Shown in pieces: positions 15,683 to 19,499 of a stretch of DNA of 64,000 bases (its first letter is position 1; each line of letters starts with the position of its first letter). Source of the stretch: a virus (lineage: Duplodnaviria > Caudoviricetes). The stretch lies in the IMG/VR virus record IMGVR_UViG_3300042378_000447, positions 511-64,510 of that record; one strand, given 5' to 3'. The notes beneath the pieces are model-generated. The model was not told the origin of the DNA and made no database searches. It worked only from the letters and a program-made list of their open reading frames with translations. The position numbers and the translations under genes are program-made.

Positions 15683-16444
15683 CTAAAATAAAGACAACTG
15701 AACTGGGTTAATTGCAGGTGGACTCATAGGAGAAACAGGAATTACAGGAATTGGTGTTATTTCCGCCACGAAGGCATTTGATTGTAGTTGAGCGATGTAA
15801 TTTATCAACTCTATTAACCTAGTGTCTCTAATGGCTTTTATTCCTCCTTCAAGTTCCCAAAATCTATCGTCAAAAACTTTCATCAGTTTGTCGCTTCTAT
15901 AATTCCCTGAATCAATCTCAGTTTTACTAAATCCCAATCCCATTAATTCTTCATATATCTGCAAATACTTTTTAAATCTGCTATCAACATAAACCGTGTC
16001 CAACTCAAATTGAACTGGAAAAAGCGTACGACTACGCGCTTCTAATGCCCATGGGATAATGTGCTTTTGTCCTGATTCTGCTATGGCAATAGTAAACGGT
16101 GGTTCAGGGGGGGTTAATAAATATTCCCTGATTTCTACCCGTGTTAATAAGTTTTTCACTACCAAGAAAGTATCTTTACCTTCAGTGTGAGTACCTTCAA
16201 TTATTGGTGCTATTAAAGTGTCACCTTGGTACACCCTAGACAAAGACCGTCCCCACAGTTTTGACCACTTATTTTTACCTTCATTCCAATACCATAACTG
16301 CTTTTGATTACCAGAAATTGTGGAATAGCAGCGATCGCACAGCAGCTTAGAATCTGGACACTTAGCTGATGAGTGCATAGTGAAAGTATTAGATAATTCT
16401 AGTGGGTTTGAAGCTGGTTTAGCACAAAGATAACAGTTAAACAT
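15683..16444 (-). CDS. csf1: type IV CRISPR large subunit Csf1 (Cas8-like)
   Basis: CYLC..LCDRC Zn motif, PPEPPFTIAIAESGQKH; operon context. Confidence 0.75.
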   Translation of the reverse strand: MFNCYLCAKPASNPLELSNTFTMHSSAKCPDSKLLCDRCYSTISGNQKQLWYWNEGKNKWSKLWGRSLSRVYQGDTLIAPIIEGTHTEGKDTFLVVKNLLTRVEIREYLLTPPEPPFTIAIAESGQKHIIPWALEARSRTLFPVQFELDTVYVDSRFKKYLQIYEELMGLGFSKTEIDSGNYRSDKLMKVFDDRFWELEGGIKAIRDTRLIELINYIAQLQSNAFVAEITPIPVIPVSPMSPPAINPVQLSLF

Positions 16445-17183
16445 AGTTTGATATTTGTGGGAATTTATCAACAAATTGGTTGTAAATACTGGGGTAATAT
16501 CTTTTTAATTCAGCTAATCTACCCCAGTTTGCTCCTGTAGTTCCAATCGGGCAACCATTCCTGACTGTCATTTTGTTAATGTCATAAATTGCTGGGTATT
16601 TGAGTGAGTACATATCTATGTACTGCCATATTTCTTCTGTAGTCCAGTGAGCAATAGGCGAGCAACAAATTAACCCATTTTTTAGTTCATGAACTTCGCC
16701 ATACTTGTTAAGATAAAATGCTCTATTTTTGCTTTCTTGTTTCCTTATTCCCCATGCGTACCCCTTGATATTGTTAATTTCTTGGTACTCTTGTAATGGA
16801 TCATAAATCAATTTTTGGTTAATTAATTTATCTACTTTTGTATCCATTGTACCCTCTAATGGAACTCCGTAATCTATGTATAAATGCCATAAATCACGAA
16901 CTGGACAAAGCTCAATAATGTTCCAGTTTTGAGTTTTCAAGTATTCCAATAACTCAATACAATCATCCCATTCTGCTAACAGTCCTTGGTTTACCCAAAC
17001 TAACGGGCAATCAGGGTAAACTTTTCTAATTAAATGAGACATTACCAAGCTATCTTTACCACCGGAAATACTTGCATAAACCTGATAATTACATTGTTCT
17101 AGCCATTGATTAATGAAATTAATGGCTTTGGTAATTTTCTTTTTTAACCAAGGGTATTGAACCCCAGAACCATTACTAAGCAT
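16437..17183 (-). CDS. cysH: CysH/PAPS-reductase-like protein of type IV-B systems
   Basis: SISGGKDS PP-loop, WGIRKQES..R, SPIAHWT. Confidence 0.85.
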   Translation of the reverse strand: MLSNGSGVQYPWLKKKITKAINFINQWLEQCNYQVYASISGGKDSLVMSHLIRKVYPDCPLVWVNQGLLAEWDDCIELLEYLKTQNWNIIELCPVRDLWHLYIDYGVPLEGTMDTKVDKLINQKLIYDPLQEYQEINNIKGYAWGIRKQESKNRAFYLNKYGEVHELKNGLICCSPIAHWTTEEIWQYIDMYSLKYPAIYDINKMTVRNGCPIGTTGANWGRLAELKRYYPSIYNQFVDKFPQISNYV

Positions 17184-17862
17184 AAATCACATTATCCTTT
17201 GGCATATAGCAAAGTTCTTTATTAGCTGCTAACCAGGCTGGGCTTTTCCATCCCCAGAGCAATTGAGGATTATCTATTTTTTGTGATATTAACCTCACAG
17301 GCATAGGACGCATTAGCTTATCATCTCGCCATAAATGGTAGTCATCATAAGCTATTTCTATTTGCCATTGCTTAATCTCACCATTGCCATAACTTCGTTT
17401 TTTCTGAATATGGGTAACAGATGACAATAGAGCGTTAATCCCGTCTTTGTCTCCTACTGCAAACCAACTAATACTATTCGTTAAACGAGTGTATAAAGGC
17501 AAATCATAAGACTTTTCCGCACCTTCACCTGTCAAGAATTTAGGCTTTCTTTTCCCCCAATTCAAGCTATTTTCATGATTATCCCATCTTTTCCGGTATC
17601 TATCAGTATTTTCACTTTTGACCACGTAACAAGGTGAACTTACACAGAAATACTTATCATTCATTATTGTATTCTGTTTAAGCGGTAATTCATCTACTAA
17701 AAAATCCTGAACTTCTGCAAGTTGTTGAATTGTAGGATTGGATGATAATAGATTATTTTCTTCTAATAATCTATAGGTAAGAAGTCCGTCTAAAGAAGGA
17801 CTCCAATTGTCATAGACACCAATCGGTGTAGACAAATATGCAGTGACTTTTAAATTATTCAC
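17176..17862 (-). CDS. csf3: type IV Cas5-like subunit Csf3
   Basis: TAYLSTPI..SLDGLL..WFAVGD..IQKKRSYGNG..RPMP..PAW. Confidence 0.8.
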   Translation of the reverse strand: MNNLKVTAYLSTPIGVYDNWSPSLDGLLTYRLLEENNLLSSNPTIQQLAEVQDFLVDELPLKQNTIMNDKYFCVSSPCYVVKSENTDRYRKRWDNHENSLNWGKRKPKFLTGEGAEKSYDLPLYTRLTNSISWFAVGDKDGINALLSSVTHIQKKRSYGNGEIKQWQIEIAYDDYHLWRDDKLMRPMPVRLISQKIDNPQLLWGWKSPAWLAANKELCYMPKDNVIYA

Positions 17863-18988
17863 CTAGTAACTTCCTTAATTCTTTGGATGTTTTTGCTTCA
17901 CTTAAAAACTGCTGATACTGATTGATATATTCCCGATATTTTTGATGGGAATTAATAAATCTGTCCCCCATGACTCCATCCTTCAAAGAACACAATAAAC
18001 CCCGTTCATGGTCAGATTGAAACCAGAAATCAAGATGAACCCTGCCATTACCGCGATTACCTTTGCCACCAATATAAGGTGATTCTGAGAACTTGAGCAA
18101 AGTATCAAATATCCATCCCTCCTCTACTTGAGTACAATTCAAATCCCATCGGGAATAAAGTTTAGCACCGGGCATAATTAATCTATCAGCAGCAATCATC
18201 TGGTCTGATTTAGTTTTCTCTTTAGTTTTACCATCACCTGTTAATTGTGCTTGTACTTCTGATGGTAGAAATTTGAGTAAGTTGGGATCTAAAGTGCTAT
18301 CCCTGCGAGTTGTCTGATCAATTGTTAAGTATTCAGTCCATGTTTTCATTGCTTTTTTGACCAATGGTAAACATTCTGATTTTACTTGATTCCAATTAGT
18401 CAAGTCTTGTGGTTTTGTGGCAACAAAAGGGTCAGAAGAAAGTCTGTTTTTGGCTTCAATTAATGTTAAAATAGTCGGTTGTATTTCCGGTGGTAAAATT
18501 GCTGGGACTTGATTGTAAACGTATTCTGCTGACTCATAGCAGACTAAATAACCACTGCCAACATTAATTCTACCAGCTACCATCTGAGCTTCTTTAGTTC
18601 CAAAAACACCTATGGGTTTAGCTGTTCCTAATACTGACAACCAAGGCATAAAGACCCGGATCTTTTTATCCAGTTCCATATCTGAAGCCGTCCCCCCATC
18701 AATTCGCCCGCCAGCAAACATTGTATGGTGAGTATCTGGATTTACTTTAATTCCTAATTCTGTGAGTGCTGCTGCCACTCCTACCCGGCGCAAAATACCG
18801 TTTCTGATTGCATTACCAGAATAGACAAAAACACTTCTAGGATTACCTTCAAAATCTAATAACTTAGTAGTTTTCAAGTTGCTAACATTGCCAGATACTT
18901 CGCCTATATGGCTTAATGGTGTCTGTAGCGTGATTAAGCAATGCAGAGTTAATTTCTCTCTGTCAAAAATATTATAATTGTCAAACAT
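17855..18988 (-). CDS. csf2: type IV Cas7-like backbone Csf2
   Basis: TPLSHIG..SGNAIRNGILRR..FAGG..G-rich loop IGGKGNRGNG. Confidence 0.85.
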   Translation of the reverse strand: MFDNYNIFDREKLTLHCLITLQTPLSHIGEVSGNVSNLKTTKLLDFEGNPRSVFVYSGNAIRNGILRRVGVAAALTELGIKVNPDTHHTMFAGGRIDGGTASDMELDKKIRVFMPWLSVLGTAKPIGVFGTKEAQMVAGRINVGSGYLVCYESAEYVYNQVPAILPPEIQPTILTLIEAKNRLSSDPFVATKPQDLTNWNQVKSECLPLVKKAMKTWTEYLTIDQTTRRDSTLDPNLLKFLPSEVQAQLTGDGKTKEKTKSDQMIAADRLIMPGAKLYSRWDLNCTQVEEGWIFDTLLKFSESPYIGGKGNRGNGRVHLDFWFQSDHERGLLCSLKDGVMGDRFINSHQKYREYINQYQQFLSEAKTSKELRKLLGE

Positions 18989-19499
18989 TTGTCACCTCTA
19001 CCTCAATAAAATCTTCTGGTTCATCAAGCCCCAAACTTCTATCTTCTTCAAATCGCAGACGACAAATTACTTGAATAACTCCTGTTTTTGTTCTGAGCAA
19101 TTCCATTACGTCCCACTCACTAAATCCGTGGGGTTCAATATCAGCAAGCAAGTCAAGCCACCCCATAAAAACCAAACTTCGATCTATTGGTAGTTCCTTA
19201 ATTTCAGTTGCATCTTCATTAATTCTCAGTATTCTCTGAGTTGGTTGAATGATTTTGGTTAGCTCTACAGGTCTTAATTGCGATATCAATTTATCGCAAA
19301 GCCTTTGTAAATAATCTTCTAAATTTGTGGATATTTCCGCGCAATTCTTGATAGAAGATTCCAAGTATGTCCAGGTTTTAGTTCCCATCGCTGGACTACG
19401 TTTTCTATCACGACATTTGAAAACCCAATAACTTAAACAAGCCGCTACGCCATAACATTTGTCTCGTGTCTGCGGCATCCCATAATGATTTATTGTCAC
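18981..19499 (-). CDS. putative Cas11-like small subunit of type IV-B
   Basis: helical 172-aa first gene of the operon, overlapping csf2. Confidence 0.5.
   Translation of the reverse strand: MTINHYGMPQTRDKCYGVAACLSYWVFKCRDRKRSPAMGTKTWTYLESSIKNCAEISTNLEDYLQRLCDKLISQLRPVELTKIIQPTQRILRINEDATEIKELPIDRSLVFMGWLDLLADIEPHGFSEWDVMELLRTKTGVIQVICRLRFEEDRSLGLDEPEDFIEVEVTNV

What the first reader, a model, noticed from the sequence alone, without database searches (positions are those of the whole stretch)
15683..19499. Complete type IV-B-like operon on a phage, 0.9 kb from a type V locus with arrays
cas11-like, csf2, csf3, cysH and csf1 form an overlapping operon with no cas6 or dinG. Established: type IV-B systems carry cysH, usually lack arrays, occur on mobile elements and have no demonstrated function; sequestration of small RNAs has been proposed. 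Here they adjoin two arrays. The complex might load these crRNAs (processed by host Cas6), cooperate with the Cas12-like nucleases, or sponge host crRNAs while the class 2 systems stay immune. The result is a three-effector CRISPR island.
Basis: partly seen in the sequence, partly recalled or inferred. Interest (0 to 1): 0.8.

Follow-up and report, generated by a model that had tools for sequence, protein, structure and literature searches.

The report
Cyanophage type IV-B cassette, clamp-docking Csf1
A tailed virus of bloom-forming cyanobacteria carries a genuine type IV-B CRISPR-like operon beside two small Cas12 systems, but the neighbours come and go independently, and the most telling feature is that its large subunit ends in the textbook peptide for gripping the DNA sliding clamp.

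Summary
Window 15683-19499 (minus strand) is an overlapping five-gene operon, cas11-like, csf2, csf3, cysH-like and csf1. Type IV models support it (PADLOC E 1e-21 to 1e-43). The record has no Cas6, DinG-type helicase or Cas1. It lies 0.88 kb from Cas12p, which matches PDB 9JFS. It also lies near a V-U2/C2c8 Cas12 with arrays of 11 and 28 repeats. A complete 100-kb relative is a tailed phage.

The proposed cooperation is not supported. Of 14 Csf2 clusters with at least 4.5 kb downstream, only 3 have a Cas12 and 1 has an array alone. The complete relative lost the IV-B operon but kept the V-U2 nuclease with 19 repeats. No spacer matches a held IV-B locus.

Csf1 ends in QLSLF, a beta-clamp-binding motif, after a variable proline-rich linker. 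Of 150 distant Csf1 representatives, 22 end this way, against 0.04 expected by chance.

My best reading is an autonomous, accessory IV-B module that works on replicating DNA.

This scan had already noted the clamp tail on other DNA. I found no paper on it. Physical binding is untested.

The parts
18981..19499 (-). cas11-like small subunit (172 aa). It overlaps the csf2 start by 8 nt.
   Evidence: PADLOC type IV Cas11 models at 2.7e-6 and 1.1e-4. No Pfam, NCBIfam or PDB match. The AF2 model is mostly helical but poor, pLDDT 50.5. Conserved in all related loci.
17855..18988 (-). csf2 (type IV Cas7 backbone, 377 aa)
   Evidence: PADLOC Csf2_0_IV 2.6e-36. TIGR03115 1.1e-7, below the cut-off. The best PDB hit of a profile of 17 homologues is the IV-B Csf2 of 7JHY, E 4e-4.
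17176..17862 (-). csf3 (type IV Cas5, 228 aa)
   Evidence: PADLOC Csf3_0_IV 1.8e-43. TIGR03116 3.5e-12, below the cut-off.
16437..17183 (-). cysH-like gene (CasCysH type, PP-loop ATP pyrophosphatase fold, 248 aa)
   Evidence: PF01507 4.8e-18, above the gathering score. The SGGKDS PP-loop is visible and there is no C-terminal Cys motif of true PAPS reductases. The motif definitions come from PMC8175902.
15683..16474 (-). csf1 (large subunit, 263 aa, with an N-terminal Cys cluster)
   Evidence: PADLOC Csf1_0_IV 1.7e-21. C14, C17, C39, C46 and C49 are invariant in 11 homologues.
15686..15790 (-). Csf1 C-terminal tail: a proline-rich linker that varies between relatives, ending in QLSLF (15686-15700), the consensus beta-clamp-binding pentapeptide.
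   Evidence: Q259, L262 and F263 are invariant while the linker varies. Of 150 distant Csf1 representatives, 22 end this way against 0.04 expected.
15277..15492 (.). Left copy of a ~220-nt direct repeat bracketing the operon. It starts with a terminator-like hairpin. 15388-15492 is an inverted copy of a segment inside the rep gene (48822-48926).
19700..19923 (.). Right copy of the bracketing direct repeat (90% identical to the left copy). With 19821-20106 it forms an inverted copy of rep 48639-48924 (82%).
15582..15648 (.). Three 21-nt tandem repeats just after the csf1 stop. They resemble the iteron region inside the rep gene of relative G014.
20017..20105 (.). Six 15-nt tandem repeats, the reverse complement of the repeats inside the element's own rep gene (48624-48728).
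12933..14801 (-). Cas12p ('Cas12 hacker'), the neighbouring class 2 effector. It is not part of the operon.
   Evidence: PDB 9JFS/9JG3, 1415.6 bits over residues 1-613. bioRxiv 10.1101/2025.01.20.633832.
11905..12647 (.). Array 2: 11 repeats of 37 nt.
9874..11872 (.). Array 1: 28 repeats of 37 nt.
8140..9903 (+). V-U2 (C2c8) Cas12-like effector
   Evidence: NF038192 at 487.6 bits, above the cut-off of 350. PADLOC Cas12u2 3.3e-166.
21460..22317 (-). DNA methyltransferase. It is the only other ORF in the window that ends in QLSLF.
   Evidence: PADLOC MTase_II 5.7e-43. Tail scan. The tail is conserved in L002, L003/L060/L097, L004 and G014.
1..1104 (+). 3' part of a phage-encoded sliding-clamp-like gene. 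The full gene is 453 aa at L104:253-1614.
   Evidence: All 5 homologues carry PF00712. The G014 orthologue matches phrog_947 at 4.4e-20. Full ORF.

Best explanation
The stretch is a genuine, intact type IV-B CRISPR-Cas effector cassette on a roughly 100-kb tailed cyanophage. It encodes Cas11-like, Csf2, Csf3 and Csf1 plus the PP-loop enzyme CasCysH. The host is probably Dolichospermum or a related member of the Nostocales.

It is an autonomous, dispensable accessory module. It sits at the edge of a fast-changing island where small Cas12 systems (Cas12p, V-U2) and their arrays are gained and lost. It does not depend on them.

Inferred mechanism:
1. Csf2 and Cas11 form a filament on an RNA, capped by Csf3 and Csf1.
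2. The flexible Csf1 tail ending in QLSLF docks the particle onto a beta sliding clamp, either the host's or the phage's own. This places it on replicating DNA.
3. There CasCysH adenylates or otherwise modifies a nucleic acid, or the particle obstructs a replisome.

Shown here: gene identities, autonomy from type V, and recurrence of the tail far above chance. Inferred: clamp binding. Speculative: the chemistry and the biological target.
For: Identity.

The cassette is conserved and intact. All 12 related viral loci carry it (one is cut by the contig end), and 44 loci with a full csf2 fall into 27 clusters at 97% identity.

Autonomy:
- Of 14 clusters with at least 4.5 kb downstream, 3 have a Cas12, 1 has an array alone and 10 have neither.
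- Within the cluster at least 97% identical to the window there are three layouts: both nucleases, Cas12p only, or V-U2 only.
- The complete relative G014 lacks csf2 but keeps the last 67 codons of csf1, so it lost the operon by deletion. It still has the V-U2 Cas12 (94% identical) and 19 repeats.
- The nine array regions gave no spacer match to non-array DNA of any held locus.

Clamp tail:
- QLSLF sits at the exact C-terminus, after a linker that differs between relatives while Q, L and F are invariant.
- 8 of 23 clusters with a readable csf1 have the tail.
- In a search with the tail-less core (aa 1-224), 22 of the best 150 representatives, each standing for a cluster at 50% identity, end in such a motif. 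17 of them are QLxLF. Chance expectation is 0.04, and 0 of 120 Csf2 homologues have it.
- In six-frame translation of the window only two frames end this way, csf1 and a DNA methyltransferase. The methyltransferase tail is conserved in 4 distinct related loci (L002, L004, G014 and the contig behind L003/L060/L097).
- The phage encodes clamp-like proteins.

DNA-modification theme: a DpdA/TGT-like gene follows the operon in L012/L071. PMC8175902 proposes that CasCysH modifies a bound nucleic acid.
Against: No experiment shows clamp binding, and nothing shows which clamp.

15 of 23 clusters and 128 of 150 representatives lack the tail. Clamp docking therefore cannot be the universal IV-B mechanism.

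All 6 Cas12p-bearing viral contigs long enough to judge carry the IV-B operon upstream and co-oriented. A functional tie to Cas12p is therefore not excluded.

L064/L065 have a 7-repeat array 0.87 kb after csf1 with no Cas12 in the next 4 kb. A IV-B complex could in principle use that array.

Seven relatives carry a Cas6 inside the operon. This points to crRNA handling in part of the family.

The Cas11 assignment is weak. All NCBIfam scores are below the curated cut-offs.
Confidence: 0.55

Rival explanations
1. Guide sharing. The Csf complex loads crRNAs from the adjoining type V arrays, perhaps cut by a host Cas6, and acts with or beside the two Cas12 nucleases as a third, nuclease-free arm against competing phages.
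For: - The operon is 0.88 kb from Cas12p on the same strand, with no minus-strand terminator predicted between them.
- All 6 long Cas12p contigs have IV-B upstream and co-oriented.
- L064/L065 have an array next to IV-B with no Cas12 in reach.
- L059 and L002 have 3 and 2 repeats within 110 nt of the csf1 stop.
- There is one precedent of IV-B beside a type V variant with a mini-array on a plasmid: the legend of Extended Data Fig. 7 in PMC12669027.
Against: - The linkage is limited to close kin, 3 of 14 clusters.
- 2.4-8 kb of unrelated genes intervene in the relatives.
- An opposite-strand ORF with its own terminator lies between csf1 and Cas12p in the window.
- G014 keeps the V-U2 system and 19 repeats without IV-B.
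- There is no Cas6 in the record.
- The solved IV-B complex bound heterogeneous RNA rather than co-expressed crRNA (PMC7937560 abstract; PMC8175902 passages).
Confidence: 0.12
2. Anti-CRISPR sponge. The complex soaks up host class 1 crRNAs and so blunts host immunity, while the phage's own class 2 systems are unaffected.
For: - This is a published hypothesis for IV-B (PMC7038947 and PMC8175902 passages).
- Seven relatives carry a MYXAN-type Cas6 inside an array-less operon (PADLOC 1e-37 to 1e-50). That fits cutting someone else's pre-crRNA.
- L012/L071 carry three csf3, two cysH and two csf1 behind one csf2. This could widen the range of RNA handles recognised.
Against: - This operon has no Cas6.
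- A sponge needs neither a clamp-docking tail nor a PP-loop enzyme.
- None of the 6 Cas6-bearing clusters has the tail, against 8 of 17 clusters without Cas6. The window's form may therefore work differently from the Cas6 forms.
- The authors of PMC7038947 themselves called this explanation unlikely.
Confidence: 0.18
3. Decaying or inert passenger. The cassette is a remnant with no current function.
For: It is dispensable, since G014 lost it. It is bracketed by ~220-nt direct repeats that could loop it out.
Against: All five ORFs are intact and overlap. The same five-gene core recurs in 27 Csf2 clusters, down to 41% identity, with many invariant residues.
Confidence: 0.03

Closest known systems
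Type IV-B CRISPR-Cas of the Mycobacterium sp. JS623 plasmid (Csf complex, PDB 7JHY; PMC7937560, PMC8175902)
   Same: Same gene set: Cas11, Csf2, Csf3, Csf1 and a CysH-like enzyme with a PP-loop. No Cas6, no helicase, no adaptation genes, and carried on a mobile element. The Csf2 profile's best PDB hit is the 7JHY Csf2.
   Different: The relationship is distant (E 4e-4). The carrier is a tailed cyanophage rather than an actinobacterial plasmid. Csf1 carries a QLSLF tail. The cassette lies next to two type V systems with arrays.
Virus-borne type IV-B: 'Fuxiviridae' archaeal viruses, and the prophages and lytic phages cited in the same paper (PMC10541130)
   Same: A IV-B effector module with a CysH-like gene in a viral genome, interpreted as counter-defence or conflict between mobile elements.
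   Different: Fuxiviruses have a mini-array of their own inside the locus. Here the arrays belong to neighbouring Cas12 genes. The host domain and the phage type also differ.
Type IV-B beside the inactivated V-B3 (Cas12b3) variant with a mini-array on an Actinomyces conjugative plasmid (legend of Extended Data Fig. 7, PMC12669027)
   Same: IV-B and a type V system with an array co-located on one mobile element.
   Different: I saw only the legend and one text sentence, which state no functional link. That Cas12 is nuclease-dead, whereas Cas12p cleaves DNA according to its paper. The carrier is a plasmid, not a phage.
Cas12p / 'Cas12 hacker' (PDB 9JFS, 9JG3; bioRxiv 10.1101/2025.01.20.633832)
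   Same: The neighbouring gene 12933-14801 is essentially this protein (1415.6 bits).
   Different: The preprint's main text does not contain 'type IV', 'Csf', 'CysH' or 'cyanobacteri'. Its screen of neighbouring ORFs reported no reliable complex. Its supplements were not available to me.
Bacterial beta-clamp clients with terminal QL[SD]LF-type motifs (the consensus is recalled, and CBM papers were seen only as listings)
   Same: A pentapeptide at the extreme terminus, after a disordered linker, conserved while the linker drifts.
   Different: I found no CRISPR-Cas subunit described as a clamp client. Binding has not been demonstrated here.

Membership tests
Type IV-B CRISPR-Cas | Csf2 (type IV Cas7) backbone | tested here: met
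   PADLOC 2.6e-36. The profile's best PDB hit is the 7JHY Csf2, E 4e-4. The NCBIfam score of 31 bits is below the cut-off of 130.
Type IV-B CRISPR-Cas | Csf3 (Cas5) and Csf1 (small Cas8-like large subunit) | tested here: met
   PADLOC 1.8e-43 and 1.7e-21. NCBIfam 46 and 33 bits, below the cut-off of 140.
Type IV-B CRISPR-Cas | Cas11-like small subunit | tested here: inconclusive
   PADLOC 2.7e-6 only. No PDB or Atlas hit. AF2 model pLDDT 50.5, helical. Its position and its overlap with csf2 fit a small subunit.
Type IV-B CRISPR-Cas | CysH-like accessory gene with a PP-loop and no catalytic C-terminal cysteine motif | tested here: met
   PF01507 4.8e-18. SGGKDS is present and the C-terminal Cys motif is absent. 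The criteria come from PMC8175902.
Type IV-B CRISPR-Cas | No DinG or RecD helicase, no Cas6, no adaptation genes | tested here: met
   PF06733, PF01881 and PF01867 have no match in the 64.5-kb record, and positive controls matched in other genomes. Cas6 tblastn found nothing. The TIGR02807 search had no positive control. RecD was not searched. The record is only 65% complete.
Type IV-B CRISPR-Cas | No CRISPR array of its own | tested here: inconclusive
   There is no array inside or abutting the cassette. The nearest array starts about 3 kb from the csf1 stop, beyond Cas12p. Ownership of a crRNA cannot be decided from sequence.
Beta-clamp-binding clients | Terminal QL[SD]LF-type pentapeptide on a flexible linker, conserved among diverged homologues | tested here: met
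   (22 of 150 against 0.04 expected; 0 of 120 Csf2 controls).
Beta-clamp-binding clients | Physical binding in the clamp's hydrophobic cleft | not testable with these tools
   This needs a pull-down or a structure.
Cas12p (PDB 9JFS) | Near-identity to the solved protein (neighbouring gene 12933-14801) | tested here: met
   1415.6 bits over residues 1-613.

The most novel reading that the evidence does not exclude
The Csf particle rides the sliding clamp on replicating DNA. It is programmed by RNAs from the adjoining phage arrays, so that two DNA-cutting Cas12 enzymes and one nuclease-free, clamp-tethered complex share a guide pool. The CysH enzyme then marks or blocks replicating genomes of rival phages. 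This would be a replication-coupled arm of CRISPR interference.
Probability: 0.08. Interest if true: 0.9.

Novelty: new variant of a known kind. Interest (0 to 1): 0.55.

Why it matters
Type IV-B is among the CRISPR-Cas subtypes whose function is still unknown; a 2026 paper still calls it unclear (PMC13676074).

This locus offers two practical handles. The first is a conserved clamp-docking peptide on the large subunit. It predicts where the complex works, on replicating DNA, and can be tested with a pull-down and a five-residue deletion.

The second is a natural series of near-identical phages with IV-B alone, IV-B plus Cas12p, IV-B plus V-U2, or V-U2 alone. Cas12p is already biochemically characterised, so dependence between the systems can be tested directly.

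The comparative data lower the odds of the appealing 'three effectors sharing arrays' idea. Cyanobacteria and their phages were not among the IV-B hosts listed in the 2019 survey (PMC7038947).

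Tried and rejected
Complex prediction of the phage clamp-like protein (453 aa, 6-row alignment) with Csf1 residues 225-263 gave no verdict: score 0.01 against a mark of 0.32, and the controls were not run. I draw nothing from it.

The Cas11 AF2 model was too poor (pLDDT 50.5) for a fold search, so I ran none. The ESM Atlas gave no usable hit. Single-sequence PDB searches of Csf2 and Cas11 gave nothing significant.

No Csf2 relative was found in GenBank phages. The first genome-contig scan also found none, and I did not use the second scan.

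I considered that the rep-derived iteron blocks flanking the operon are a general feature of these cassettes. They are not. TRF found such repeats only in the window and L004, and BLAST found the corresponding region in G014.

I looked for a conserved non-coding RNA upstream of cas11. Nine lineages align at 41% mean column identity with no conserved block. Rfam has no hit in the window.

I considered a thioredoxin link: Cas12p is activated by thioredoxin, and true CysH enzymes use it. I dropped the idea because this CysH lacks the redox cysteine motif and the preprint does not mention CysH.

The host's identity and its CRISPR types were not established. Only the label 'Dolichospermum sp.' on binned homologues points to a host. 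Host repeats were not compared.

Supplements of all papers were closed. The Cas12p preprint's locus tables and the 12 IV-B-with-Cas6 cases of PMC7038947 could bear on novelty.

Full report
WHAT IS THERE

Window 15683-19499 holds five minus-strand ORFs that overlap by 8-38 nt. PADLOC type IV models name them as follows:
- Cas11-like, 2.7e-6 (weak)
- Csf2, 2.6e-36
- Csf3, 1.8e-43
- Csf1, 1.7e-21

The fourth gene carries a PAPS-reductase domain (PF01507, 4.8e-18). NCBIfam's Csf models give the same names at E 1e-7 to 1e-12, but all scores are far below the curated cut-offs. This is therefore a distant branch of the family.

A profile of 17 Csf2 homologues finds the IV-B Csf2 of 7JHY as its best solved relative (E 4e-4). 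The IV-A Csf2 of 8RC2 comes second.

The CysH-like protein has the PP-loop SGGKDS and lacks the C-terminal cysteine motif of true PAPS reductases. This matches the published description of CasCysH (PMC8175902, passages read).

The 64.5-kb record has no Cas1, DEAD_2 helicase or Cas6 match. Cas6 proteins taken from relatives find nothing in the window.

SETTING

The window is most of an IMG/VR record that CheckV rates 65% complete. A syntenic relative, G014, is 100,083 bp with direct terminal repeats and is rated 100% complete. Its DnaB is 86% identical to the window's. It encodes large terminase (2e-140), major head, portal and tail J proteins. 'On a phage' is therefore right.

Several Csf2 homologues at 73-76% identity are binned as Dolichospermum sp.. 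That is the only pointer to the host.

NEIGHBOURS

Gene 12933-14801 is the published Cas12p, or 'Cas12 hacker' (PDB 9JFS, 1415.6 bits). According to its preprint, host thioredoxin activates it (abstract and sections 5 and 6 read). The preprint's main text does not contain 'type IV', 'Csf' or 'CysH'.

Gene 8140-9903 is a V-U2/C2c8 Cas12 (NF038192, 487.6 bits against a cut-off of 350). Arrays of 28 and 11 repeats lie between the two nucleases.

IS THE LINKAGE MEANINGFUL?

I collected 12 viral and 38 metagenomic loci encoding Csf2 relatives. The five-gene core is present wherever the contig allows. The 44 loci with a full csf2 fall into 27 clusters at 97% identity.

Fourteen of those clusters have at least 4.5 kb of sequence downstream of csf1:
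- 3 have a Cas12 within about 8 kb. All three have csf2 at least 81% identical to the window's.
- 1 has a 7-repeat array but no Cas12 (L064/L065).
- 10 have neither.

Conversely, 6 of the 7 viral contigs with a Cas12p relative are long enough to judge. All 6 have the IV-B operon upstream and co-oriented, 2.4-8 kb away with unrelated genes in between. They are one phage lineage, so this is inherited synteny rather than repeated association.

The cluster that includes the window shows three layouts:
- both nucleases (the window)
- Cas12p only, with a swapped CysH and an extra 230-aa gene (L003/L060)
- V-U2 only, with 2-3 repeats abutting csf1 (L002, L059)

The complete phage G014 lacks csf2. It retains the last 67 codons of csf1 and the region downstream of it (77% identity over 412 nt). 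It therefore lost the operon by deletion, yet it keeps the V-U2 Cas12 (94%) and a 19-repeat array that shares no spacer with the window.

BLAST of the nine array regions found no match to non-array DNA of any held locus at 88% or more over at least 24 nt.

Taken together, IV-B is an accessory module and the class 2 systems do not need it. Dependence of IV-B on the class 2 systems is unlikely, because most IV-B loci have none nearby.

THE CLAMP TAIL

Earlier notes of this scan on other genomes said that phage Csf1 proteins end in a clamp-binding peptide. I tested that here.

The window's Csf1 ends in ...PPAINPVQLSLF. In an alignment of 11 homologues at 46-96% identity, the 25-35-residue linker is not conserved, while Q259, L262 and F263 are invariant.

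Of the 23 clusters with a readable csf1, 8 have such a tail.

To avoid circularity I searched 1.84 billion representatives with the tail-less core, aa 1-224. Of the best 150 representatives, each standing for a cluster at 50% identity, 22 end in Q[LMIV]x[LMIF][FLWM] within two residues of the C-terminus, and 17 of them are QLxLF. The internal frequency of the motif in the same proteins predicts 0.04 such cases. None of 120 Csf2 homologues has one.

In the six-frame translation of the window, only two frames end in QL[SDGN]LF: csf1 and the DNA methyltransferase at 21460-22317. The methyltransferase tail is conserved in L002, L003/L060/L097, L004 and G014.

The phage encodes clamp-like proteins. 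The window's first ORF is the 3' part of a 453-aa one whose homologues carry PF00712. G014 has a second clamp-like gene (phrog_947, 6.5e-71).

None of my three searches linking Csf1, type IV CRISPR or Cas8 with the sliding clamp, the beta clamp or clamp-binding motifs returned a relevant paper.

MECHANISM

Shown: the parts list and its autonomy.

Inferred, at about 60%: the tail tethers the Csf particle to a sliding clamp and hence to replicating DNA.

Speculative: what happens there. Possibilities are nucleic-acid adenylation or modification by the PP-loop enzyme, as proposed in general terms in PMC8175902, or obstruction of a replisome. A methyltransferase with the same tail, and a DpdA/TGT-like gene after the operon in L012/L071, fit a theme of modifying nascent DNA.

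VARIATION IN THE FAMILY

- Seven relatives carry a MYXAN-type Cas6 inside the operon with no array in reach. They include the Gloeobacter morelensis plasmid pGMOR1. Such cases are known as rare exceptions, 12 instances in PMC7038947.
- None of the 6 Cas6-bearing clusters has the clamp tail, against 8 of 17 others. This is a hint only: the hypergeometric probability is about 0.05 by my own arithmetic, from no call, and the clusters are related.
- L012/L071 have three csf3, two cysH and two csf1 behind a single csf2 and cas11.

THE FLANKS

The operon is bracketed by ~220-nt direct repeats, 15277-15492 and 19700-19923, 90% identical. Each starts with a terminator-like hairpin and includes an inverted copy of a segment inside the rep gene. 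Tandem repeats sit beside each copy. The 21-nt repeats after csf1 resemble the rep iteron region of G014 rather than the element's own. This arrangement is limited to the window, L004 and the G014 remnant. I therefore read it as a local recombination scar or an incompatibility decoy, not as part of the IV-B machinery.

VERDICT

The cooperative reading is mostly unsupported.

The thing itself is a new, cyanophage-borne variant of a known but unexplained system. Virus-borne IV-B is already in print (PMC10541130). So is one case of IV-B beside a type V variant (legend in PMC12669027).

The clamp-docking tail is the feature most worth an experiment. This scan had found it before on other DNA.

Noticed in passing
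window 21460-22317 (-): This type II DNA methyltransferase ends in QQLSLF, the same clamp-binding-type tail as Csf1. The tail is conserved in L002, L003/L060/L097, L004 and G014. It suggests methylation coupled to the replication fork.
   Followed up: partly
window 15277-15492 and 19700-19923; 15582-15648; 20017-20105; 48624-48926: The IV-B operon is bracketed by ~220-nt direct repeats that contain inverted copies of a segment inside the rep gene, with tandem repeats beside them. The downstream 21-nt repeats resemble a relative's rep iterons rather than this element's own. They could be a recombination scar or a decoy for a rival's initiator protein.
   Followed up: partly
L014 (Gloeobacter morelensis plasmid pGMOR1) 7445-12470; L070, L075, L078, L079, L080, L083: IV-B-like operons with a MYXAN-type Cas6 (PADLOC 1e-37 to 1e-50) among the csf genes and no array within reach. 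Some also carry a small cupin gene. None of them has the Csf1 clamp tail.
   Followed up: partly
L012 1699-10374 and L071: One cas11 and one csf2 are followed by csf3-cysH-csf3-csf1, a 70-aa ORF, csf3-cysH-csf1 and then a DpdA/TGT-like gene. These are multiple alternative cap modules behind a single backbone.
   Followed up: partly
L003/L060 11806-13207; also L061, L064, L085: csf2, csf3 and csf1 are 95-97% identical to the window's. Yet the cysH gene is replaced by a version only 28% identical, plus an extra 230-aa gene with no family match. This looks like a cassette swap inside the operon.
   Followed up: no
L064/L065 16612-17087: A 7-repeat array lies 0.87 kb after csf1, with no Cas12 in the next 4 kb. 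A 233-aa gene, HTH-like by eye only (no Pfam family), lies between them on the opposite strand.
   Followed up: partly
L096 2792-2828; L002 13310-13397: In L096 a solitary array-1 repeat sits between a csf2 truncated after 52 codons and the 3' part of cysH. This is either a rearrangement or an assembly chimera. In L002 two repeats lie directly after the csf1 stop.
   Followed up: no
G014 73511-90829 (L057/L058): A single 5,772-aa open reading frame in the complete relative phage. It was not examined.
   Followed up: no
window 15050-15253 (+): A 67-aa ORF with a good promoter-like site and its own terminator lies between csf1 and Cas12p on the opposite strand. It has no homologue in any related locus.
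   Followed up: no
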